A stretch of 44,576 bases of DNA from Crocinitomicaceae bacterium (GCA_022447665.1 JAKVAQ010000039.1:1-44576), one strand, 5' to 3'; shown: positions 7,723 through 16,873, counted from the first letter of the stretch. The notes: generated by a model from the letters alone, not told the origin. A program made the numbers and translations.

Positions 7723-8187
7723 TTACAAATAGTCAAAGAACCTAGTCCACCAAGTAAGCCCCTCCTCATAAGGTTCATTTACACCGTCATAGATTTCTTC
7801 TAGTTCGTCTTGATCTATATAGATGTAACCGTTTTCATCAAGAATTTGCCTACAAGCCATTATTTCTGAATAGTACTTCTCCTTTTCCTTTGGCATGTTC
7901 ATAACAGTAAATAGGTTTCCGAAATTGGAGAATCTAAAACAAAAAGTATAACTGAGAAAGACCGTTCGGGCACTATCTTTCCTTTCTTCTAATAGTCGTA
8001 AATCTGCGATAAAAGATCCGTCTTGTACTTGTTTGTCAAGATCAAGTTTAAAACCGAAGATTTTCTCAAAATCATTTTTAAAAGATACAACTTTCTTGAT
8101 TAGTTTGCGCCATCTAAAGCTCCTAGGCACTTCCCATTGACCTTTTTCATCAATCGATATGAGTAATTCGTATAAATCCTTTCTCAC
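7723..8187 (-). CDS. hypothetical cytoplasmic protein
   Basis: ORF track; no motif recognised. Confidence 0.4.
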   Translation of the reverse strand: MRKDLYELLISIDEKGQWEVPRSFRWRKLIKKVVSFKNDFEKIFGFKLDLDKQVQDGSFIADLRLLEERKDSARTVFLSYTFCFRFSNFGNLFTVMNMPKEKEKYYSEIMACRQILDENGYIYIDQDELEEIYDGVNEPYEEGLTWWTRFFDYL

Positions 8188-8261: not shown

Positions 8262-8849
8262 TTAAAAGTCTGCTTTATTCTTGGATATGAATGTATAAAG
8301 CAATTCAATTAAATCGTCAGGGTATTCGTAAAACTTAGAATCACATTCTTCCCATTTGTCCCACAGTTGATCCTCATGTTCCTCAAGAATATTTATTCTT
8401 TCTGTCCGATTTGAAGGGATAGTTTTATTCGGCAATATTGAATTTGCATCATTCATGATTTTTGCCATACTATCTGCTCCAATTGTTAACAGCGCCTCGT
8501 AAGTTTCTAAAGAGTAATCACCACTTGAGTTAGAATAGAATTGATGAAAACCACCGTTATTAACTTCTATTTCCAAATTTTCAATAAACAATACTGTTTT
8601 TTCAGATTCAGTCAATTTTGACAGGTCTTCGCCGTAATTAGTTTTCTCGTTGAGTTGTTCATCCAATTCGATAACCGCTTCGGTATGATCCTCCATTGCT
8701 AGGATTAATTCAATGCTCATGTTTTCAGATGTTTCTACATGATGATTTTCATCAATTATTTCAATGTTTTCTTCAGTGTCTTCAGAACATGAGTAAAAAG
8801 TCAATAAAACAAAAACGAGTGTATTGAAATATTTGAAGATTGACATCAT
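8262..8849 (-). CDS. DUF4375/DMP19-like protein with lipoprotein signal
   Basis: Signal peptide (FYSC-SEDTEE) and the NNGGFHQF motif that I recall as characteristic of the DMP19/DUF4375 family. Confidence 0.4.
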   Translation of the reverse strand: MMSIFKYFNTLVFVLLTFYSCSEDTEENIEIIDENHHVETSENMSIELILAMEDHTEAVIELDEQLNEKTNYGEDLSKLTESEKTVLFIENLEIEVNNGGFHQFYSNSSGDYSLETYEALLTIGADSMAKIMNDANSILPNKTIPSNRTERINILEEHEDQLWDKWEECDSKFYEYPDDLIELLYTFISKNKADF

Positions 8850-9321: not shown

Positions 9322-10011
9322 CTAAATTTCGAAATGCATACCGTCTTTCAGTAGCCGCTTGTATGTCTTTTTATTGAATTGAAATAAGTTGCCTGGGCGA
9401 CCAGCACCACTTGATTTAGCCTTTTCATCTAACTCATCCAGTATTCCTAAATGCATAACTTTTTTCTTAAAATTCCTGCGATCAATCGGTCGATCTAACA
9501 AAGTAGCGTAAAGGATTTCTAGATCCGAAAAAGGAAATTTCTTATCTAGAAGTTCAAAACCAATGGGTTCATAACTAATCTTACCTCTAAGCCTTTCAAT
9601 TGCGAGTTTTATGATCTTTTTATGATCAAACGCTAATTTAGGTAATGACTTTATGTTGAACCATTTTGCCTCTTCGGCATCAGTAGATGCTTTTAACTTT
9701 TCGAACTGGCTAGATTTAACAAGACCAAAGTAAGCTACAGTAACCACTCTACGTCTTGGATCACGCTCCGGTGAACCGAATGTATATAATTGCTCGAGGT
9801 AATTAATTTTTATGCCTGTTTCTTCTTCTAGTTCTCGCTCAACAGCGTCTTCTAAAGGTTCGTTATCATGAACAAATCCACCAGGAATAGCCCATTCACC
9901 TTTAAAGGGTTCATACTTCCTTTTTATCAGCAGTAGTGAAACACCTGAGTCCCTATTGTAACCAAAAACTATGGCATCAACGGCGACATGAATATTTTGT
10001 GTCATTTTCAC
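9322..10011 (-). CDS. nrtR: NrtR-family transcriptional regulator (Nudix ADP-ribose-binding domain plus C-terminal winged helix)
   Basis: Nudix box GEWAIPGGFV..EDAVERELEEETG in the N-terminal half; C-terminal winged-helix-like domain; divergently arranged relative to the NAD/ADP-ribose operon. Confidence 0.75.
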   Translation of the reverse strand: MKMTQNIHVAVDAIVFGYNRDSGVSLLLIKRKYEPFKGEWAIPGGFVHDNEPLEDAVERELEEETGIKINYLEQLYTFGSPERDPRRRVVTVAYFGLVKSSQFEKLKASTDAEEAKWFNIKSLPKLAFDHKKIIKLAIERLRGKISYEPIGFELLDKKFPFSDLEILYATLLDRPIDRRNFKKKVMHLGILDELDEKAKSSGAGRPGNLFQFNKKTYKRLLKDGMHFEI

Positions 10012-10103
10012 ACAATAAAGATACTCTTTTGTATTACTAAAGCCGAATTTTTAAATAAAAAAGTAATTTATTGAATTTTATAACACTGAAAATCAGTCAA
10101 CAA

Positions 10104-10185
10104 AATTAATATGTGTTAATTTAACGCAAATATATTTGGAGGTTAATTCTTTTTGAACTTATATTTGCGTTATTAATACACAAAT
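10104..10185. promoter_or_regulatory. candidate operator palindromes in the nrtR / NADAR-operon divergent region
   Basis: AAATTAAtatgtgTTAATTT (10104-10123), CAAATATATTTG (10127-10138), ATTTGCGT-N7-ACACAAAT (10163-10185). Confidence 0.4.
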
Positions 10186-10192
10186 AAAAGTC

Positions 10193-10759
10193 ATGGAATC
10201 GAAATATTCAATTGAATTACTTGTAGCTAAAAAAGAGCCCCATAAGTTTTTATTCTTTTGGGGCCATCAGCCAAGTCCTAAAGGAACTATTGGGAAGAGC
10301 TGCTTTAGCCAATGGTGGACGACTCCATTTGAAATTAGTAGTATCAAGTATAAGACTGCTGAGCATTTCATGATGGCAGAAAAAGCAAGATTATTTAATA
10401 ATCTAGAAATCGCTGAACAAATAATTTCATGCTCTTCTCCGGCAGAGGCAAAAAAACTAGGAAGAGAGGTGAAGGGTTTTGAGCAGGAAGTTTGGGAAGC
10501 ACATCGCTTTAGTATAGTGAAAACTGGGAATTATCATAAGTTCAATCAAAATCAAAAACTAAAGGAGTTTTTACTAAATACTAAAACACGAGTATTAGTT
10601 GAAGCTAGTCCAGTTGACCCTATTTGGGGTATAGGCATGGCAGAAGACAACCCCAAGGTATTTAATCCTGAAAACTGGAGAGGACTCAATTTATTAGGAT
10701 TTGCGTTAATGGAAGTTCGGGACGAATTAACAAAAGAAAATGAAAGCAAAACTATTTAG
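10193..10759 (+). CDS. NADAR (YbiA-like) domain protein
   Basis: FFWGHQPS..SQWW..F..AEHFMMAEKARLF...WGIG signature of the NADAR/DUF1768 family. Confidence 0.75.
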   Translation: MESKYSIELLVAKKEPHKFLFFWGHQPSPKGTIGKSCFSQWWTTPFEISSIKYKTAEHFMMAEKARLFNNLEIAEQIISCSSPAEAKKLGREVKGFEQEVWEAHRFSIVKTGNYHKFNQNQKLKEFLLNTKTRVLVEASPVDPIWGIGMAEDNPKVFNPENWRGLNLLGFALMEVRDELTKENESKTI

Positions 10760-11147
10760 GCCAATTGGAATTGGTGAGTATAAGCTTATCCGTGAAAGTG
10801 ATTATAAAGCTTTTCCTCCTAGACTTGAATGGCAACCGATCTTTTACCCTGTTACAAATCAGGCTTATGCCGAGTAAATAGCGAATAATTGGAATACACA
10901 AGATGAATTTTCTGGGTATTGCGGTATCGTTACTGCTTTTGAAGTCAGGTCTGATTTTCTAAGTAAGTATCCCTTGAAAAATGTAGGTGATAAAATGCAT
11001 AATGAACTATGGATACCTGCAGAGGATCTTGAGGATTTTAACACAAATATTATAGGCAAGATTCAAGTAGTCAACGCCTTTTTTGGCGATAAATTCTCGG
11101 TTAAAGAAAATACAATTGTCGAATCATATTACAAGATATATACATGA
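10740..11147 (+). pseudogene. hypothetical ORF of about 135 codons interrupted by one in-frame TAA at 10875-10877
   Basis: Continuous coding frame 10740-11147 (..PVTNQAYAE * IANNWNTQDEF..KIYT) with ATGA-type overlaps to both neighbours; a single in-frame stop. Confidence 0.4.
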
Positions 11148-11653
11148 AACTAGAATTAATAAAAGGTGACATTACAACAATAAAAGTTGATGCCATTGTC
11201 AATGCAGCTAACTCATCACTTCTCGGGGGTGGCGGAGTAGACGGCGCCATTCACAGAAAAGGGGGGGAGCAAATTCTGGAAGATTGTCAAGCAATACGTC
11301 AAAAGCAGGGTAAATGTGATACTGGACAAGCTGTAATAACAAGAGCAGGAAATCTTCCGTCTAATTATGTAATTCATACTGTCGGTCCTGTCTACAATAA
11401 AGGTGGTGTTCTTAAAGAACAACAATTAGCAAACTGTTACAAGAACTCTATTAATCTGCTAATTAAGAACGGACTAAAAACGATAGCTTTTCCTAATATT
11501 AGTACTGGGATTTACGGGTTTCCTAAAAAAAGAGCTGCAGAAATAAGTGTGAAAACAATCCTCTGTTTGGCCCCGTCAGAACAACCTGAAAAAGTCATAT
11601 TCGTTTGTTTTGATGACCAAAACTACAGGATATATGAAGAATTATTGAAATGA
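11144..11653 (+). CDS. Macro domain protein (ADP-ribose / O-acetyl-ADP-ribose processing, YmdB-like)
   Basis: MKLELIKGDITTIKVDAIVNAANSSLLGGGGVDGAIHRKGG... classic Macro domain start and glycine-rich loop. Confidence 0.85.
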   Translation: MKLELIKGDITTIKVDAIVNAANSSLLGGGGVDGAIHRKGGEQILEDCQAIRQKQGKCDTGQAVITRAGNLPSNYVIHTVGPVYNKGGVLKEQQLANCYKNSINLLIKNGLKTIAFPNISTGIYGFPKKRAAEISVKTILCLAPSEQPEKVIFVCFDDQNYRIYEELLK

Positions 11654-12285
11654 AAGTACAGATAAAAAAATACAAAGAACAACTAAAAGAGTGGCCTAAC
11701 GAAGGGTACCATATAATGGCTCAATATGATGATGAAAAAATCATTGTTTATCAATCCTACAGACCAGAAATAGGAAATTTTGCGGTAGAAAATCAATTTT
11801 TCGGAGGAGCATTTAGTCTTGACCGAATGACATGGATTAAACCTAACTTTCTATGGATGATGTACCGAAATGGTTGGGGAACAAAGCAAGGACAAGAGGT
11901 TGTTCTTGCAATACACCTTAAACTAGATGCTTTTGAACGCTACTTGAAAGAAGCAATTCATTCCAGCTACAAAAGCGACTTATATGCGTCTCATGAAGAT
12001 TGGAAACAGAAGTTGACTACATCGTCTGTGCGGTTGCAATGGGATCCAGATCATGATCCATATGGTGCTAAACTTAAAAGAAGAGCTATACAAATTGGTA
12101 TAAGAAATGAAGAAGTTATTGGTTATTCAAAAAATGATATTCTAGCAATTGATGACATTTCTGCATTCGTAAAAGAACAACATGTTTATGTAAAAGAAAG
12201 AAATCTTGGTCAACTGTGGACTCCTGAGGAGAGACCTTTGGTTTTTAAAGATGAAAGACTCAATAAAAAGTTGAATTTACAATGA
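11650..12285 (+). CDS. DUF4291-like protein (NAD/ADP-ribose pathway-associated)
   Basis: Operon context and a conserved W/F-rich core; my recollection is that this family co-occurs with Macro and KptA. Confidence 0.4.
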   Translation: MKVQIKKYKEQLKEWPNEGYHIMAQYDDEKIIVYQSYRPEIGNFAVENQFFGGAFSLDRMTWIKPNFLWMMYRNGWGTKQGQEVVLAIHLKLDAFERYLKEAIHSSYKSDLYASHEDWKQKLTTSSVRLQWDPDHDPYGAKLKRRAIQIGIRNEEVIGYSKNDILAIDDISAFVKEQHVYVKERNLGQLWTPEERPLVFKDERLNKKLNLQ

Positions 12286-12818
12286 ACACAAAAAGAATAA
12301 GTAAACTAATGAGCCTTATACTCAGGCATAATCCTGGTGTTATCAATGCCTCACTAGACGAAAATGGCTGGCTTGATGTGGATGACTTGATTCTGGGGAT
12401 AAAATCAAAAGGATTAGAAATTACACGAGAAATTTTAGAGAAAGTCGTTGAAACAAATAATAAAAAGCGATTCTCATTCAGTTTGGACGGAACAAAAATA
12501 AGGGCGAATCAGGGACATTCAATAGATGTTGATATTGAATTGAAACCTACTTCTCCTCCTGAATTTTTATACCATGGTACTGTAGAAAAATATTTAGATG
12601 CTATTAAGTCTGAAGGTTTGAAAAAAATGAATAGACAACATGTGCATTTAAGTAAAGACATAGACACCGCTGAAAACGTAGGAGGTAGACGTGGAAAACC
12701 CGTAATATTGACTGTAAATACTGGCCAAATGGAAGATGCTGGTTACACATTCTATCTTTCAGAAAATAAGGTATGGCTTACAGATCATGTTCCTCTTGAA
12801 TTTATAAATTTTCAATAA
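12282..12818 (+). CDS. kptA: RNA 2'-phosphotransferase KptA/Tpt1
   Basis: LSKLMSLILRHNPG..GW..VDDL.., IRANQGHS, HGT, HVHLS, GRRG motifs of the Tpt1/KptA family. Confidence 0.85.
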   Translation: MNTKRISKLMSLILRHNPGVINASLDENGWLDVDDLILGIKSKGLEITREILEKVVETNNKKRFSFSLDGTKIRANQGHSIDVDIELKPTSPPEFLYHGTVEKYLDAIKSEGLKKMNRQHVHLSKDIDTAENVGGRRGKPVILTVNTGQMEDAGYTFYLSENKVWLTDHVPLEFINFQ

Positions 12819-13369
12819 TGAATAAAAAAGTAATAACCGAAGAAATATTTGAAATTGAGAACTTCCTTACTCCAATTGAGTGTGACGAATTTCTAGATCG
12901 CTTTGAAAATGAAACCTTTGAAGAAGCAAAGGTGAATATTGACGGTAACCAGATAATGCGAAAGAGTATAAGAAATAATGATAGAATTTTATTTTTTGAC
13001 AATAATCTTGCGGAGGAAATGTGGTCAAAAGTATCATCTTTTGTTCCCGAAGAGCTAGGCTTGTATAAATCTATTGGGCTTAACGAGATGTTTAGGGTAT
13101 ACAAATACTCTGCAGGGCAGCGCTTCAAAATGCACATGGATGGCAGCTATAAAAGGAATGAGCGCGAACAGAGTTTTTATTCCTTTTTGATATATCTTAA
13201 TGAGGATTTTAGCGGAGGAGAAACAGAGTTTAGAAAATTAGGTATCGTTGAACCTAAAAAAGGCAATGCTTTGGTTTTTAGACATCATAATCGACATGAA
13301 GGAAAGGAAGTAAAATCTGGTAAAAAGTATGTCTTGCGAACAGACATTATGTTCAAGATAAAAGAATGA
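12818..13369 (+). CDS. 2OG-Fe(II) oxygenase superfamily protein (prolyl-4-hydroxylase-like)
   Basis: H-x-D (KMHMDGS) and distal His (RHHNRHEG) with an R/K motif near the C-terminus. Confidence 0.6.
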   Translation: MNKKVITEEIFEIENFLTPIECDEFLDRFENETFEEAKVNIDGNQIMRKSIRNNDRILFFDNNLAEEMWSKVSSFVPEELGLYKSIGLNEMFRVYKYSAGQRFKMHMDGSYKRNEREQSFYSFLIYLNEDFSGGETEFRKLGIVEPKKGNALVFRHHNRHEGKEVKSGKKYVLRTDIMFKIKE

Positions 13370-14097
13370 AAAGAACTCTTGTATTTGGAGATATTCATGG
13401 CGGCCTAAAAGCATTGAATCAAGTTTTAAATCGCGCGAAAGTTTCAGAGAATGATACCCTAATATTTCTTGGAGATTATGTGGATGGGTGGAGTGAATCG
13501 AGCAGTGTTATTTCACGCCTTATCGAACTTGAAAAAAGCAATAATTGTGTCTTTATTAAAGGTAATCACGACCAATGGTGTGAAGACTGGCTGCGTTCAT
13601 CTAATGGGAACAGTACTTGGCTATTTCACGGAGGAGAATCAACCGTAAACAGTTATAAAGGCTACAATAACGAGGAGCTAAGAACACATTTGAACTTCTT
13701 TGAGTTAATGCGAAACTATTATGTGGATAATAAAAACCGACTTTTTATTCATGCAGGGTTTGCATCAATGCATGGAGTGGAAAAAGAACCTTATCCATCT
13801 AATTATTCTTGGGATAGAACATTATGGGAGATGGCATACAGCTTAAAAGATTTGGAACTTGACGAATCATCCCTCCACTACCCCAAGCGATTTAAACATT
13901 ACAGTGAAATCTATATTGGTCATACCCCCACAACTGACTATAACGTTGCCACCCCAATCATTGCTCAGAAATTAGTAAATGTTGATACGGGCGCTGCATT
14001 TAAAGGTAAACTCACTGCTTTAGACGTTGATTCAAAAGTGTTTTGGCAAAGTGATCCTCTCCCTGAACTGTATCCCAATGAAAAAGGAAGAAATTAA
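13366..14097 (+). CDS. calcineurin-like metallophosphoesterase (ApaH/Ser-Thr phosphatase-like)
   Basis: GDIHG...GDYVDGW...GNHD motifs. Confidence 0.7.
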   Translation: MKRTLVFGDIHGGLKALNQVLNRAKVSENDTLIFLGDYVDGWSESSSVISRLIELEKSNNCVFIKGNHDQWCEDWLRSSNGNSTWLFHGGESTVNSYKGYNNEELRTHLNFFELMRNYYVDNKNRLFIHAGFASMHGVEKEPYPSNYSWDRTLWEMAYSLKDLELDESSLHYPKRFKHYSEIYIGHTPTTDYNVATPIIAQKLVNVDTGAAFKGKLTALDVDSKVFWQSDPLPELYPNEKGRN

Positions 14098-14123
14098 TTC
14101 ATCAAGATTATTACTAACGCATC

Positions 14124-14573
14124 ATGATCTTCACATCTGAAATTCCCTTATCCGATATAGACACCAATAAAAAGCTTATTTTCCTTGCGGGAAGCATTGA
14201 TCTAGAATTACCAGGGAACTGGAGAAAACAAGTATCATCTCTTCTTGAAGATCAGTTTAATTATTTTGATCCTACTAGTCAGAATCATGGTGAAATGGAC
14301 CATGAAGCATGGAATACACATATTAATTGGGAACTTGAAGCTATGAAAATGGCAGATATAGTATTTATGAACCTACTCCCAAATGCAAAATCTCCAATCT
14401 CTTTAATTGAATTAGGCTTGAACTCATTGAACGGAAAGTTAGTCGTTGTTTGTCCTAAAGAATTCTATAAGAATCAATATATTCAAGCGTTATGCGCATA
14501 CCACTCCACCCCTATTTTTCAAACATTAAAAGAAGGTGTTCAACATGTTAAAAACGTAATTAGTGTAAAATAA
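14124..14573 (+). CDS. nucleoside 2-deoxyribosyltransferase-like (NDT/SLOG fold) protein
   Basis: LAGSI N-terminal motif and a distal acidic residue in a pattern typical of the NDT-like fold; operon context. Confidence 0.45.
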   Translation: MIFTSEIPLSDIDTNKKLIFLAGSIDLELPGNWRKQVSSLLEDQFNYFDPTSQNHGEMDHEAWNTHINWELEAMKMADIVFMNLLPNAKSPISLIELGLNSLNGKLVVVCPKEFYKNQYIQALCAYHSTPIFQTLKEGVQHVKNVISVK

Positions 14574-14634
14574 ACACAAATTATTTGTGTTATTCTAATA
14601 ACTTCTTTTATATTTGCGTATATATTACACAAAT
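14574..14634. promoter_or_regulatory. candidate operator palindromes upstream of nadV
   Basis: ACACAAAT-T-ATTTGTGT (14574-14590) and ATTTGCGT-N7-ACACAAAT (14612-14634), the same architecture as 10163-10185. Confidence 0.45.
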
Positions 14635-14646
14635 AAAATTTACAAT

Positions 14647-16101
14647 ATGAATGCTTTATTATTAACAGACGGTTATAAAACAGGACATCATCAGCAATAC
14701 CCTCAAGGAACGGAGGAAGTTTATTCGAACTGGACACCACGAAGTAATAAATATGCACCAAAGGGATGCGATAAAGTAGTTTCGTTTGGACAACAGTATG
14801 TAATGAAATGGTTGCACAATTATTTTCATCAAAACTTCTTCAGGAAGCCTAAAGCAGAAGTATGCAATGAAATAAGGGAAGAGCTTTCATTATACTTAAA
14901 TACAGACTATGATGTAAGTCATTTTGAAGAACTTCACGATTTGGGTTATCTGCCTATTAGAGTTAAATCTTTACCTGAAGGAACAGAAGTGAATATTCGT
15001 GTACCTATGCTGACAGTTGTAAATACTAGAAAGGAATTCTATTGGGTAACAAATTTTCTTGAAACTATTCTTTCAACAATGCTTTGGCAACCTATGACTT
15101 CGGCTACAATTGCACTAAATTACAAACGAATTTTCACTAAGTGGGCAAAGCAAACAGACGTTGAAAATATCGGATTTGTTGACTTTCAAGGACATGATTT
15201 TAGTATGCGAGGAATGGGTGGCCTGCAAAGTGCTCAAAGCTCAGGGATGGGTCATGGAGCCGTTTTTTTAGGTAGTGACACACTTCCTGCCATTGCTGGC
15301 TTGCGCAGGTATTATAACGCTCAAGATTTTGTATTAGGCTCTGTCAACGCTACAGAGCACAGTGTAATGTGTGCAGGCACTAAAAATGATGAAATAGGCA
15401 CATTTAAAGAACTAATGAAAACCTACCCTACTGGAATTCTTTCAGTTGTTAGTGACACATGGGACCTTTGGAAAGTAATTACTGAGTATTTACCTAAACT
15501 TAGGGAAGATGTTCTAGGGAGAGACGGAAAATTAGTGATACGTCCTGATAGCGGTGATCCTGTTGATATTATTTGCGGTGAAGATCGCAAACTCGGTGGA
15601 AACTCCCCTCAAGACAAAGGTGTGATTGAATTAATATGGGAGCTTTTTGGAGGAACTACTAATCCTCAGGGATACAAGGTACTCAACCAACATATTGGCG
15701 CAATTTACGGAGATAGCATAACTACAGAAAGAGCAGAGCAAATTTGTCAACGTTTACATGAAAAGGGATTCGCCTCAACAAATGTTGTGCTTGGTATTGG
15801 AAGCTTTACATATCAGTTTAATACAAGAGATACGTTTGGATTTGCTATGAAAGCAACTAGTGTTGTTGTGAATGGAGAACGTCGAGAGATATTTAAAGAT
15901 CCTATTACAGATGATGGTGTAAAGAAAAGTGCAAAAGGTTTGGTGCGAGTAGATGAATTAGATGGTGAATATATTCTTGTAGATCAAGTATCTGAAGAAG
16001 AAGAAAAAAAAGGTTCTTTAGAAATAATCTATGAAAACGGGGAATTCAAGAAAAATGTAGAAATGAATGAAATAAGAGCTCGTATCAATGCTAACGTATA
16101 A
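14647..16101 (+). CDS. nadV: nicotinamide phosphoribosyltransferase (NadV/NAMPT family)
   Basis: N-terminal LLLTDGYKTGHHQQYP and overall length; start moved to the internal ATG at 14647 so that the palindromic operator lies upstream of the start. Confidence 0.8.
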   Translation: MNALLLTDGYKTGHHQQYPQGTEEVYSNWTPRSNKYAPKGCDKVVSFGQQYVMKWLHNYFHQNFFRKPKAEVCNEIREELSLYLNTDYDVSHFEELHDLGYLPIRVKSLPEGTEVNIRVPMLTVVNTRKEFYWVTNFLETILSTMLWQPMTSATIALNYKRIFTKWAKQTDVENIGFVDFQGHDFSMRGMGGLQSAQSSGMGHGAVFLGSDTLPAIAGLRRYYNAQDFVLGSVNATEHSVMCAGTKNDEIGTFKELMKTYPTGILSVVSDTWDLWKVITEYLPKLREDVLGRDGKLVIRPDSGDPVDIICGEDRKLGGNSPQDKGVIELIWELFGGTTNPQGYKVLNQHIGAIYGDSITTERAEQICQRLHEKGFASTNVVLGIGSFTYQFNTRDTFGFAMKATSVVVNGERREIFKDPITDDGVKKSAKGLVRVDELDGEYILVDQVSEEEEKKGSLEIIYENGEFKKNVEMNEIRARINANV

Positions 16102-16111
16102 ACTTTGAAAA

Positions 16112-16873
16112 ATGGATTACAAACTGAAAAAATTCAACGACGGCCAGGTATCTGTCTCAGGGATAAAGGAAGGTGATCTTGAAATAAAAATAAGAGGCAA
16201 CTCTTACGAAGATCTGTTCACTATTGCATCAATAAAGGAGGCATGGGATGCAATGAATTCAATCAATAAGAAAGCTGTTTCTATTTTAACTATCTGCTGT
16301 TTAATTGGTCAACGTTCGGATAGAAGATTTAATAAAGGCGAATCTTTTGATTTAAAAGTCATTGCTGATTTTATAAATCGAATGAAATTCGATCGTGTCC
16401 GTATTCTGCATCCTCATAGCCCCATTACATTAGCACTGATTAACAATTCGGAAAAAATATCACATTCAGAGTATGTAAAAAAAGCTTACGAGGCCATTGG
16501 AGCTCCTGTTTTAGTGAGTCCCGATGCCGGTGCTTATAAAGTAACCCACGAGATTGCAGGACTTTTAGGGGCTGATTTAATCCCTTCGAATAAGGTACGA
16601 GTGAATGGTGTTCCTGAAATAAGTATTCAAGGTGATGTAAGCGGAGAGCAGTGTTTAATTGTAGATGATTTGGCAGATGGAGGGAGAACATTTAAAAATT
16701 TGGCAGTTGCTCTTAAAAAACAAGGAGCCACTGCGGTTTATTTATATGTTACACATGCACAATTCAACTACGGATTTGACGAGCTAAAGGAGTCAATTGA
16801 TCATATCTATTGCACTAACAGCTATAAGGAAATCGATAATGAATTGGTAACACAGTTTAAAGTTATAGATTAG
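16112..16873 (+). CDS. ribose-phosphate pyrophosphokinase (Prs)-like phosphoribosyltransferase
   Basis: GQRSDRR, VSPDAGA and PRPP-binding CLIVDDLADGGRTF motifs; shorter than canonical Prs; 10 nt downstream of nadV. Confidence 0.65.
   Translation: MDYKLKKFNDGQVSVSGIKEGDLEIKIRGNSYEDLFTIASIKEAWDAMNSINKKAVSILTICCLIGQRSDRRFNKGESFDLKVIADFINRMKFDRVRILHPHSPITLALINNSEKISHSEYVKKAYEAIGAPVLVSPDAGAYKVTHEIAGLLGADLIPSNKVRVNGVPEISIQGDVSGEQCLIVDDLADGGRTFKNLAVALKKQGATAVYLYVTHAQFNYGFDELKESIDHIYCTNSYKEIDNELVTQFKVID

What the first reader, a model, noticed from the sequence alone, without database searches (positions are those of the whole stretch)
10104..14634. Repeated ACRCAAAT palindromic operator candidates upstream of the NADAR operon and of nadV
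Two sites share the exact architecture ATTTGCGT-N7-ACACAAAT (10163-10185 and 14612-14634). Each is accompanied by a second palindrome using the same half-site: CAAATATATTTG at 10127-10138, and ACACAAAT-T-ATTTGTGT at 14574-14590. Position (promoter-proximal, in the divergent nrtR region and directly before nadV) fits NrtR operators. The dual-site layout suggests cooperative binding. I do not recall the NrtR motif for this lineage, so the assignment to NrtR is inference.
Basis: seen in the sequence. Interest (0 to 1): 0.55.

Follow-up and report, generated by a model that had tools for sequence, protein, structure and literature searches.

The report
NrtR repressor sites at NAD-gene promoters
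The repeated palindromes are almost certainly binding sites for the neighbouring NAD-sensing repressor NrtR, placed over the promoters of an ADP-ribose-processing operon, the NAD-salvage genes nadV-prs and nrtR itself: a well-supported but ordinary example of a known regulatory system in a lineage where its motif had not been spelled out.

Summary
The two ATTTGCGT-N7-ACACAAAT sites are real. With at most 1 mismatch the window holds 4 matches, against 0.00 expected.

The window holds five sites of this 23-bp type, not two:
- a proximal and distal pair before NADAR (10163-10185, 10109-10131);
- a pair before nadV (14612-14634, 14559-14581);
- a weaker site over the nrtR start codon (9995-10017).

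Each is the right half of a distal site joined to a Bacteroidetes -33 TTTG promoter element.

The layout is conserved next to nrtR in 18 of 21 Bacteroidota loci: distal site, TTG, about 21 nt, then TAT plus the proximal site, with the pair 52-54 bp apart. The proximal left half doubles as the -7 box TAnnTTTG.

The regulator has Nudix and NrtR_WHD domains. It keeps most of the residues that read GTGT in the BtAraR-DNA crystal structure. It also has an intact Nudix box and the arginine that contacts ADP-ribose in SoNrtR.

Best explanation: NrtR represses these promoters by occlusion and ADP-ribose relieves it. Binding, effector and cooperativity are inferred, not tested. Tandem NrtR sites are already known, so this is a new member of a known kind.

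The parts
9322..10011 (-). nrtR, the regulator gene. It is 229 aa from the conserved GTG start; an ATG at 10005 would give 227 aa.
   Evidence: Pfam finds NUDIX (8.5e-23) plus NrtR_WHD (1.8e-19). PDB hits are BtAraR 5BS6 (2e-51) and SoNrtR 3GZ5 (4e-30). A 100% identical protein is named as from a Crocinitomicaceae MAG. GTG is the only start codon conserved in relatives.
9995..10017 (.). Candidate autoregulatory operator O3. On the nrtR strand it reads TATTGTGT-GAAAATG-ACACAAAA and overlaps the nrtR GTG start.
   Evidence: The core TTGYGT-N7-ACRCAA is exact. It sits at the same position in 8 related loci (7988-8006 or equivalent). Flavobacteriaceae carry an equivalent site just upstream of the ATG. 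The matrix score of 16.8 bits is borderline against the null maximum of 16.1, and part of the site is coding sequence.
10016..10023 (-). -7-like box TATCTTTA for nrtR. The predicted transcription start is at or next to the GTG start codon.
   Evidence: TAnnTTTA directly before TTGYGTG is present in 9 of 9 loci of this group. The role is inferred from the consensus TAnnTTTG at -12 to -5 (PMC9723704, PMC6847099). No transcription start data exist.
10109..10131 (.). Distal NrtR operator of the NADAR promoter, ATATGTGT-TAATTTA-ACGCAAAT, at about -63 to -41.
   Evidence: It has 1 mismatch and scores 25.9 bits. A distal site 52-54 bp upstream of the proximal one is present at 19 of 21 related promoters.
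10135..10138 (+). -33-type TTTG of the NADAR promoter.
   Evidence: A TTG lies 3-5 nt after the distal site in 15 of 18 aligned promoters. A 21-nt spacer separates it from the -7 box. The consensus TTTG/TAnnTTTG is from PMC6847099 and PMC2483708.
10160..10167 (+). -7 box TATATTTG of the NADAR promoter. The predicted transcription start is near 10172.
   Evidence: It matches TAnnTTTG exactly. The ATTTG inside it is invariant in 21 of 21 proximal sites, and the TA(T) just before it is also conserved.
10163..10185 (.). Proximal NrtR operator of the NADAR promoter, ATTTGCGT-TATTAAT-ACACAAAT, at about -9 to +14.
   Evidence: It is an exact match and scores 30.2 bits. It ends 7 nt before the NADAR ATG.
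10193..14573 (+). Target operon: NADAR, a disrupted unknown ORF, Macro, DUF4291, KptA/Tpt1, 2OG-Fe(II) oxygenase, calcineurin-like phosphoesterase and a nucleoside 2-deoxyribosyltransferase-like gene.
   Evidence: Domains come from Pfam and NCBIfam. The same NADAR-led operon follows the tandem sites in L001 and L002.
14559..14581 (.). Distal NrtR operator of the nadV promoter, ATTAGTGT-AAAATAA-ACACAAAT. It overlaps the stop codon of the upstream gene.
   Evidence: It has 1 mismatch and scores 24.7 bits. It lies 53 bp upstream of the proximal site.
14584..14587 (+). -33-type TTTG of the nadV promoter.
   Evidence: The spacer to the -7 box is again 21 nt. In relatives only the TTG is conserved, not the full right arm.
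14609..14616 (+). -7 box TATATTTG of the nadV promoter. The predicted transcription start is near 14621.
   Evidence: It matches TAnnTTTG exactly. The position is conserved in relatives.
14612..14634 (.). Proximal NrtR operator of the nadV promoter, ATTTGCGT-ATATATT-ACACAAAT.
   Evidence: It is an exact match and scores 30.7 bits. It ends 12 nt before the nadV ATG at 14647.
14647..16873 (+). Target operon nadV (nicotinamide phosphoribosyltransferase) and prs (ribose-phosphate diphosphokinase-like).
   Evidence: nadV hits NAPRTase/NAMPT_N and PRK09198 at 550 bits. prs hits the Pribosyltran and ribP_PPkin families. nadV-prs follows tandem sites in 12 related loci.

Best explanation
The 23-bp palindromes (consensus ATTTGYGT-N7-ACRCAAAT) are operators of the adjacent Nudix-related repressor NrtR.

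Shown from sequence and comparison:
- Five such sites sit at three promoters.
- At the NADAR operon and at nadV-prs, a proximal site covers the Bacteroidetes -7 box (TAT|ATTTG) and the predicted transcription start.
- At both promoters a distal site lies 53-54 bp upstream and ends just before the -33 TTG.
- A third site overlaps the start of nrtR.

Inferred:
- One NrtR dimer binds each site through its winged-helix domains, reading GYGT in each half.
- Occupied sites keep RNA polymerase off the promoter.
- When NAD is consumed and ADP-ribose (or a close derivative) accumulates, it binds the Nudix domain and releases NrtR. NAD salvage (nadV, prs), ADP-ribose and ADP-ribosylation processing enzymes, and nrtR itself are then induced.
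For: 1. Specificity. There are 4 matches at up to 1 mismatch against 0.00 expected. A matrix trained only on other genomes finds just these five sites in the window.
2. Conservation. The exact core TTGYGT-N7-ACRCAA gives 31 matches in about 327 kb of 21 related loci, all in regulatory regions next to nrtR. The sites follow nrtR whether the target is nadV-prs, prs-nadV, the NADAR operon, an SPFH/NAD-kinase-like operon or a pair of Zn-ADH genes.
3. Footprint. Conservation peaks at the distal site, the TTG, and TAT plus the proximal site. The roughly 21-nt spacer and the leader are not conserved. Pair offsets are 52 bp (2 promoters), 53 bp (10) and 54 bp (7).
4. Family match. The regulator has NUDIX plus NrtR_WHD domains. 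NrtR motifs are 21-bp palindromes with a GT-N7-AC core (PMC2330246). The MsNrtR site has the same 8-N7-8 geometry (PMC6800001).
5. Structural rationale. The BtAraR crystal operator is AAAAGTGT-N7-ACACCCAT, with GTGT read by K179, R180, N181, K184 and R205 (PMC4666351). The window protein has R, R, N, K and R at those positions. The helix IDRRNF(K/R)KK is invariant in all 18 loci that carry the motif. A 43%-identical paralog with a different helix has no such site.
6. Effector. The Nudix box is intact. Arg86 aligns with SoNrtR Arg98, an ADP-ribose contact that is Gly in arabinose-binding AraR.
7. Precedent. Tandem NrtR sites at S. oneidensis prs-nadV both bind protein, and ADP-ribose releases it.
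Against: - There is no binding, footprinting, expression or transcription start data for this organism or any close relative. The promoter elements and start sites are consensus predictions.
- Genome-wide frequency could be tested only on 44.6 kb of this genome plus about 327 kb of related loci.
- The closest solved homolog is the arabinose-responsive AraR, not an ADP-ribose-responsive NrtR. SoNrtR Asn43 and Lys76 are not conserved, so the effector is inferred.
- The GTGT-N7-ACAC core is shared with AraR, so a paralogous regulator could recognise the same sites.
- The third site is borderline by score, and part of it is constrained by coding sequence.
Confidence: 0.85

Rival explanations
1. 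The repeats are only generic Bacteroidetes promoter elements (-33 TTTG and -7 TAnnTTTG) in AT-rich intergenic DNA, with no dedicated regulator.
For: The left half of every proximal site contains the -7 box TAnnTTTG.
Against: A promoter does not need the right half ACRCAAAT, the GYGT/ACRC core or the whole distal palindrome, yet these are as conserved as the -7 box. No other promoter in the 44.6-kb window or in about 327 kb of related loci carries the dyad. The dyad co-occurs only with nrtR.
Confidence: 0.04
2. The sites are operators, but for another transcription factor. Candidates are an AraR/XylR-type NrtR paralog, or a GntR-type regulator that also reads GT-N-AC dyads. The adjacent nrtR gene would be coincidental or only one of several binders.
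For: The GTGT-N7-ACAC core is identical to the BtAraR operator core. Bacteroidota genomes often hold several NrtR-family paralogs (PMC2330246 Table 1; L019). GntR/FadR operators have GT-Nx-AC cores and can overlap the -7 box (PMC7641319).
Against: The only gene constantly linked to the sites across 18 loci from several families is this nrtR ortholog, while the targets vary. A site at the regulator's own start indicates autoregulation. The targets are NAD and ADP-ribose genes, not sugar genes. The N7 spacer matches NrtR geometry rather than the 2-3 nt spacer of the FadR subfamily.
Confidence: 0.08
3. The palindromes act as nucleic-acid hairpins, either as a terminator after the upstream operon or as a structure in the mRNA leader, rather than as protein-binding sites.
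For: ACACAAAT-T-ATTTGTGT lies right after a stop codon. Each palindrome can fold at -4.8 to -7.3 kcal/mol, with z-scores of -1.7 to -4.0.
Against: - The stems are AT-rich and weak. The scan finds no terminator-like site there, and none has the required G+C-rich stem.
- The variable Y/R pair (positions 6 and 18) is complementary in only 20 of 40 sites, so nothing selects for pairing.
- The right arm of 14574-14590 is not conserved in relatives.
- With the predicted transcription start inside the spacer, only half of each proximal palindrome would be transcribed.
Confidence: 0.02

Closest known systems
Shewanella oneidensis NrtR and its tandem operators upstream of prs-nadV (Rodionov et al. 2008, PMC2330246; structures 3GZ5/3GZ6/3GZ8)
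   Same: It is a Nudix plus winged-helix repressor encoded next to its targets. The targets are also nadV and prs. Two operators precede the operon and both bind protein in EMSA. ADP-ribose releases the repressor. The palindrome has a GT-N7-AC core. The window protein keeps the equivalents of So Arg41 and Arg98.
   Different: The So protein matches the window protein far less well than BtAraR does (phmmer E 4e-30 against 2e-51). The recognition helix differs (IQGKSFRRR against IDRRNFKKK), and so does the outer motif sequence. The SoNrtR Nudix box is degenerate, whereas here it is intact. Here the regulon also includes an ADP-ribose-processing operon and nrtR itself.
Bacteroides thetaiotaomicron AraR and its operators (Chang et al. 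2015, PMC4666351; 5BS6, 5DD4)
   Same: It is the closest solved homolog (E 2e-51). The operator core GTGT-N7-ACAC is identical. The DNA-contacting residues R180, N181, K184 and R205 are conserved, and K179 is replaced by Arg. Tandem sites are common, lying 3 bp or 42 nt apart.
   Different: AraR senses L-arabinose and has a broken Nudix box with Gly89 where this protein has Arg86. Its targets are arabinose genes. The outer half-site bases differ (AAAAGTGT against ATTTGYGT). Wing residue K204 is Gly here.
Mycobacterium smegmatis NrtR (Gao et al. 2019, PMC6800001)
   Same: The palindrome is 23 bp with the same 8-N7-8 geometry (GTTTTCGA-N7-TCGAAAAC). The regulator sits in a divergent nrtR/target arrangement. 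It is a proven auto-repressor and ADP-ribose antagonises binding.
   Different: It has a single site with a different sequence. It controls de novo synthesis (nadABC) rather than salvage, and it is regulated by acetylation.
[quoted passage not shown]
   Same: It is from the same phylum and has the same core targets. It was probably predicted from the same ortholog group.
   Different: It was derived from one genome. Its site sequences could not be read here because the logo and supplement are not held. No NADAR/Macro operon or autoregulatory site is listed.
AusR (GntR/FadR family) operators in Zobellia galactanivorans (PMC7641319)
   Same: It is a flavobacterial repressor whose paired GT...AC operators are fused to the -7 box TAnnTTTG. 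This is the same promoter-occlusion design.
   Different: The protein family is unrelated. The dyad is short (TKGT-N2-3-ACMA) and the pairs are 3 bp apart. It controls alginate catabolism.

Membership tests
NrtR family regulator (the protein) | N-terminal Nudix-fold effector domain fused to a C-terminal winged-helix DNA-binding domain | tested here: met
   Pfam finds NUDIX at residues 8-135 (8.5e-23) and NrtR_WHD at 151-212 (1.8e-19).
NrtR family regulator (the protein) | ADP-ribose (or a related NAD metabolite) as the effector that lowers DNA affinity | not testable with these tools
   Only indirect evidence exists. The Nudix box is intact. Arg31 and Arg86 align with the SoNrtR ADP-ribose contacts Arg41 and Arg98, and AraR has Gly at the latter position. 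So Asn43 and Lys76 are not conserved. The NCBIfam NtrR equivalog scores 135.6 bits against a cut-off of 400, so the protein is not that exact equivalog.
NrtR operator (the DNA sites) | A palindrome of 21-23 bp with a conserved GT-N7-AC core | tested here: met
   All five window sites have GT-N7-AC. Across 40 sites from 19 genomes the symmetric positions are complementary in 31-39 of 40 sites, except the Y/R position. The family definition is from PMC2330246.
NrtR operator (the DNA sites) | Location in promoter regions of NAD-metabolism genes and/or next to nrtR, conserved across related genomes | tested here: met
   The sites lie before nadV-prs, before the NADAR operon and at nrtR in the window. 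The same holds in 18 of 21 Bacteroidota loci. No core match occurs elsewhere in about 327 kb.
NrtR operator (the DNA sites) | Specific binding by the cognate NrtR protein (EMSA or footprint) | not testable with these tools
   There is only a structural argument. The residues that read GTGT in the BtAraR-DNA crystal are conserved or conservatively replaced.
NrtR operator (the DNA sites) | Repressor geometry, meaning overlap with the core promoter or transcription start | tested here: inconclusive
   The proximal sites overlap exact TAnnTTTG boxes, with a TTTG 21 nt upstream. The predicted leaders of 21 and 26 nt are close to the 24-nt median reported for F. psychrophilum. No experimental transcription start is available.
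   The spacing is fixed at 52-54 bp, about five helical turns and so the same face of the DNA. Promoter geometry also dictates this spacing. SoNrtR and BtAraR tandem sites give two stepwise shifted bands in EMSA.

The most novel reading that the evidence does not exclude
This Bacteroidota NrtR clade keeps a fully intact Nudix catalytic signature in all 18 orthologs examined. It may therefore be both a repressor and an active ADP-ribose pyrophosphatase that destroys its own inducer, which would give a self-resetting pulse response.

Its regulon would then be more than NAD homeostasis. It would be an ADP-ribosylation and NAD-depletion stress response. That response would couple NAD resynthesis (nadV-prs) to removal of ADP-ribose adducts from nucleic acids and proteins (NADAR, Macro, KptA, phosphoesterase). 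In other Bacteroidota it would also include an SPFH/NAD-kinase-like/TCAD9-phosphatase conflict system. The likely triggers are NAD-targeting toxins or phage attack.
Probability: 0.2. Interest if true: 0.55.

Novelty: new member of a known kind. Interest (0 to 1): 0.3.

Why it matters
- It gives a precise, phylum-wide operator model (ATTTGYGT-N7-ACRCAAAT, in pairs 52-54 bp apart and fused to the -33/-7 promoter) for the NAD-type NrtR of Bacteroidota. The held literature lists only a one-genome prediction for this group.
- The model allows regulon prediction in flavobacterial and cytophagal genomes.
- It places a poorly understood ADP-ribose-processing operon (NADAR, Macro, DUF4291, KptA, 2OG oxygenase, phosphoesterase) under the same switch as NAD salvage. 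That is a testable clue to the operon's function.
- It does not reveal a new mechanism.

Tried and rejected
- Hairpin or terminator reading: the folds are weak (-4.8 to -7.3 kcal/mol). The scan found no terminator-like site at the palindromes. There is no covariation at the variable pair. Rejected.
- The sigma-70 promoter scan found fewer hits than shuffles (15 against 19.1). It does not apply to Bacteroidetes promoters, so I used the TTTG/TAnnTTTG consensus from the literature instead.
Rejected in favour of distal site plus -33 element.
- A nrtR promoter using TATATTTG on the minus strand of the distal NADAR site (10131-10138): not conserved in L001 or L004. Dropped in favour of the conserved TAnnTTTA next to the GTG start.
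- Site sequences for C. hutchinsonii and S. oneidensis: the supplement of PMC2330246 is not held and Huang et al. 2009 (PMC2896262) is not held. I could not compare directly with the published 'Cytophaga' motif or the Shewanella site spacing.
- Other regulon members in the window: none. No further matrix hit reaches 8 bits. The flanking genes are mostly uncharacterised.
- The single genome-contig scan went on nrtR relatives, so no whole-genome frequency test was possible.

Full report
**Observation.** ATTTGCGT-N7-ACACAAAT lies at 10163-10185 and 14612-14634. CAAATATATTTG lies at 10127-10138, and ACACAAAT-T-ATTTGTGT at 14574-14590.

The pattern is far from chance.
- ATTTGYGT-N7-ACRCAAAT with at most one mismatch gives 4 matches in the 44,576-bp window, against 0.00 expected from shuffles.
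- With at most three mismatches it gives 5 matches against 1.23 expected, and all five lie in the two regulatory regions.
- The three additional sites are 10109-10131 (1 mismatch), 14559-14581 (1 mismatch) and 9995-10017 (3 mismatches in the outer bases, but an exact TTGYGT-N7-ACRCAA core).

**Genes.**
- The minus-strand gene at 9322-10011 has NUDIX and NrtR_WHD domains.
- Divergent from it lies NADAR (10193-10759). After NADAR comes an ORF interrupted by a stop codon, followed by Macro, DUF4291, KptA/Tpt1, a 2OG-Fe(II) oxygenase, a calcineurin-like phosphoesterase and a nucleoside deoxyribosyltransferase-like gene, ending at 14573.
- nadV (14647-16101) and a prs-like gene (16112-16873) come next.
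- An identical NrtR protein is recorded from a Crocinitomicaceae MAG in Flavobacteriales. Orthologs at 80% identity or more fill the top of the hit list, and those that carry a source name are from Bacteroidota.

**Comparative test.** I fetched 21 genomic loci encoding relatives of this NrtR. They come from Fluviicola, Brumimicrobium, Crocinitomicaceae, Roseivirga, Ekhidna, Saprospiraceae, Tenacibaculum, Polaribacter, Winogradskyella and others.
- The 23-bp dyad is present next to nrtR in 18 of them.
- The exact core occurs 31 times in about 327 kb, and every occurrence is in a regulatory region next to nrtR.
- The target operon changes between loci: nadV-prs, prs-nadV, the NADAR operon, an SPFH/NAD-kinase-like/TCAD9-phosphatase operon, or two Zn-dependent dehydrogenases. 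nrtR is the only constant neighbour.
- A weight matrix trained only on the 36 sites from other genomes finds just the five window sites, at 30.7, 30.2, 25.9, 24.7 and 16.8 bits. Nothing else in the window reaches 8 bits. The null maximum is 16.1 bits, so the fifth site is borderline on score alone.

**Anatomy.** Anchoring 18-21 promoters on the proximal site shows a fixed layout. In order:
1. the distal site nTTTGYGT-N7-ACRCAAAT;
2. 3-5 nt;
3. TTG;
4. about 21 non-conserved nt;
5. TAT followed by the proximal site ATTTGYGT-N7-ACRCAAAT;
6. 7-25 non-conserved nt;
7. the ATG.

Start-to-start offsets of the pair are 52 bp (2 cases), 53 bp (10 cases) and 54 bp (7 cases). Two promoters have no distal site.

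The elements between the sites match the Bacteroidetes sigma-A promoter. That consensus is -33 TTTG and -7 TAnnTTTG at -12 to -5, with 4-5 nt to the transcription start (PMC6847099, PMC9723704, PMC2483708). In the window:
- **NADAR promoter:** TTTG at 10135-10138, TATATTTG at 10160-10167, predicted start near 10172, leader 21 nt.
- **nadV promoter:** TTTG at 14584-14587, TATATTTG at 14609-14616, predicted start near 14621, leader 26 nt.

The proximal operators therefore span about -9 to +14, and the distal ones about -63 to -41.

The ATTTG of the proximal left half is invariant in 21 of 21 sites, while the same bases in distal sites vary. This fits a double constraint from the -7 box and the half-site.

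Each is the right half of a distal site (ACRCAAAT) joined to the -33 TTTG. Only the TTG is conserved in relatives.

**Third site.** On the nrtR strand 9995-10017 reads TATTGTGT-GAAAATG-ACACAAAA. The conserved GTG start lies in its left half, and a conserved TAnnTTTA box sits immediately upstream (9 of 9 loci of this group). In Flavobacteriaceae an equivalent palindrome lies just upstream of the ATG. Both arrangements point to autoregulation, as shown experimentally for M. smegmatis NrtR (PMC6800001). Part of the window site is coding sequence, so its conservation is confounded by that constraint. I rate it a candidate.

**Link between motif and protein.**
- NrtR motifs are 21-bp palindromes with a GT-N7-AC core (PMC2330246). 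The M. smegmatis site is a 23-bp 8-N7-8 dyad.
- The closest solved structure is B. thetaiotaomicron AraR (E 2e-51).
- AraR's crystal operator is AAAAGTGT-TACTTTT-ACACCCAT. GTGT is read there by Lys179, Arg180, Asn181, Lys184 and Arg205 (PMC4666351).
- The window protein has Arg, Arg, Asn, Lys and Arg at those positions. Wing residue Lys204 is Gly here.
- The helix IDRRNF(K/R)KK and the wing G(A/S)GRP are invariant in all 18 loci that carry the motif.
- A 43%-identical paralog (L019) has an AraR-like helix and a broken Nudix box, and no such site was found next to it.

**Effector.** Unlike AraR, this clade keeps an intact Nudix signature (G-x5-E-x7-RELxEExG[IV]). It also has Arg at the position of SoNrtR Arg98, which contacts ADP-ribose and is Gly89 in AraR. 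Together with the NAD and ADP-ribose nature of the targets, this favours ADP-ribose or a close derivative as the inducer. Two other SoNrtR contacts (Asn43, Lys76) are not conserved, and nothing was measured.

**Rivals.**
- Generic promoter elements alone cannot explain the conserved right halves, the distal dyads or the exclusive association with nrtR.
- A different regulator cannot be excluded, because AraR-type paralogs read the same GTGT core. The constant linkage to this nrtR ortholog and the autoregulatory site argue against it.
- Hairpin function is unlikely. The folds are weak and no terminator-like site was found. The variable Y/R positions are complementary in only 20 of 40 sites.

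**Comparison and novelty.**
- Tandem NrtR-family operators are already known and validated. S. oneidensis prs-nadV gives two shifted complexes that ADP-ribose releases. BtAraR sites lie 3 bp or 42 nt apart.
- A Bacteroidetes NrtR-nadV regulon was predicted for Cytophaga hutchinsonii in 2008.
- Nudix-HTH repressors of ADP-ribose-processing operons have been proposed on genomic grounds (PMC9503650).
- A flavobacterial operator fused to the -7 box has been described for AusR.
- New here are the explicit phylum-wide motif, the conserved two-site and promoter geometry, the autoregulatory site, and the placing of the NADAR-Macro-KptA operon in the regulon.

This is a new member of a known kind. It is solidly supported by comparison but not by experiment.

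Noticed in passing
window 10740-11147 (+): The apparent 385-bp gap between NADAR and Macro is a single 135-codon reading frame broken by an in-frame TAA at 10875-10877. The intact homolog in L002 (6852-7247, 61% identity) has Gln at that codon. This points to a CAA-to-TAA nonsense change, which could be a pseudogene, an assembly error or readthrough. The family has no Pfam match.
   Followed up: partly
L005 ~3400-4523; L012 and L014 8699-~11000; L016 8710-~11000: In other Bacteroidota the same tandem NrtR-type sites precede a different operon. It encodes an SPFH/Band-7 protein, a weak NAD-kinase-like protein and, in L005, a 765-aa isochorismatase/TCAD9/dual-specificity-phosphatase protein. These are components of predicted nucleotide-dependent conflict systems, so NrtR control may reach beyond NAD homeostasis.
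   Followed up: partly
window 9322-10011 (-), residues 45-67 of the 229-aa protein: The NrtR Nudix signature is fully intact (GFVHDNEPLEDAVERELEEETGI), and it is intact in all 18 motif-bearing orthologs. Characterised NrtR and AraR proteins usually have a degenerate box. The regulator may therefore also hydrolyse its effector.
   Followed up: partly
window 10009-10023 (-): The only start codon conserved among close orthologs is a GTG embedded in the operator half-site. A conserved TAnnTTTA box lies 4 nt upstream of it. This predicts a leaderless or nearly leaderless nrtR mRNA with a GTG start, which would be unusual. No transcript data are available.
   Followed up: no
L003 7822-7897 and downstream (minus strand): In an uncultured Roseivirga the tandem sites divergent from nrtR precede two paralogous Zn-dependent dehydrogenase/quinone-oxidoreductase genes rather than NAD-salvage genes. 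The first of the two was confirmed by Pfam.
   Followed up: no
L005 6925-6947; L008 7874-7896: These two promoters carry only a single proximal site with no recognisable distal partner. The distal site is therefore dispensable in some lineages.
   Followed up: no
window 10185-10189 and 14634-14638: The right end of each proximal operator runs into TAAAA, 3 and 8 nt before the ATG. This matches the A-rich TAAAA element reported 2-12 nt upstream of flavobacterial start codons (PMC2483708). The operator, promoter and translation signal are therefore tightly packed.
   Followed up: no
window 8262-8849 (-): A DMP19-like protein gene (PF14300, 2e-26) lies about 470 bp beyond the 3' end of nrtR, among several ORFs with no Pfam match. 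None has an NrtR-type site.
   Followed up: no
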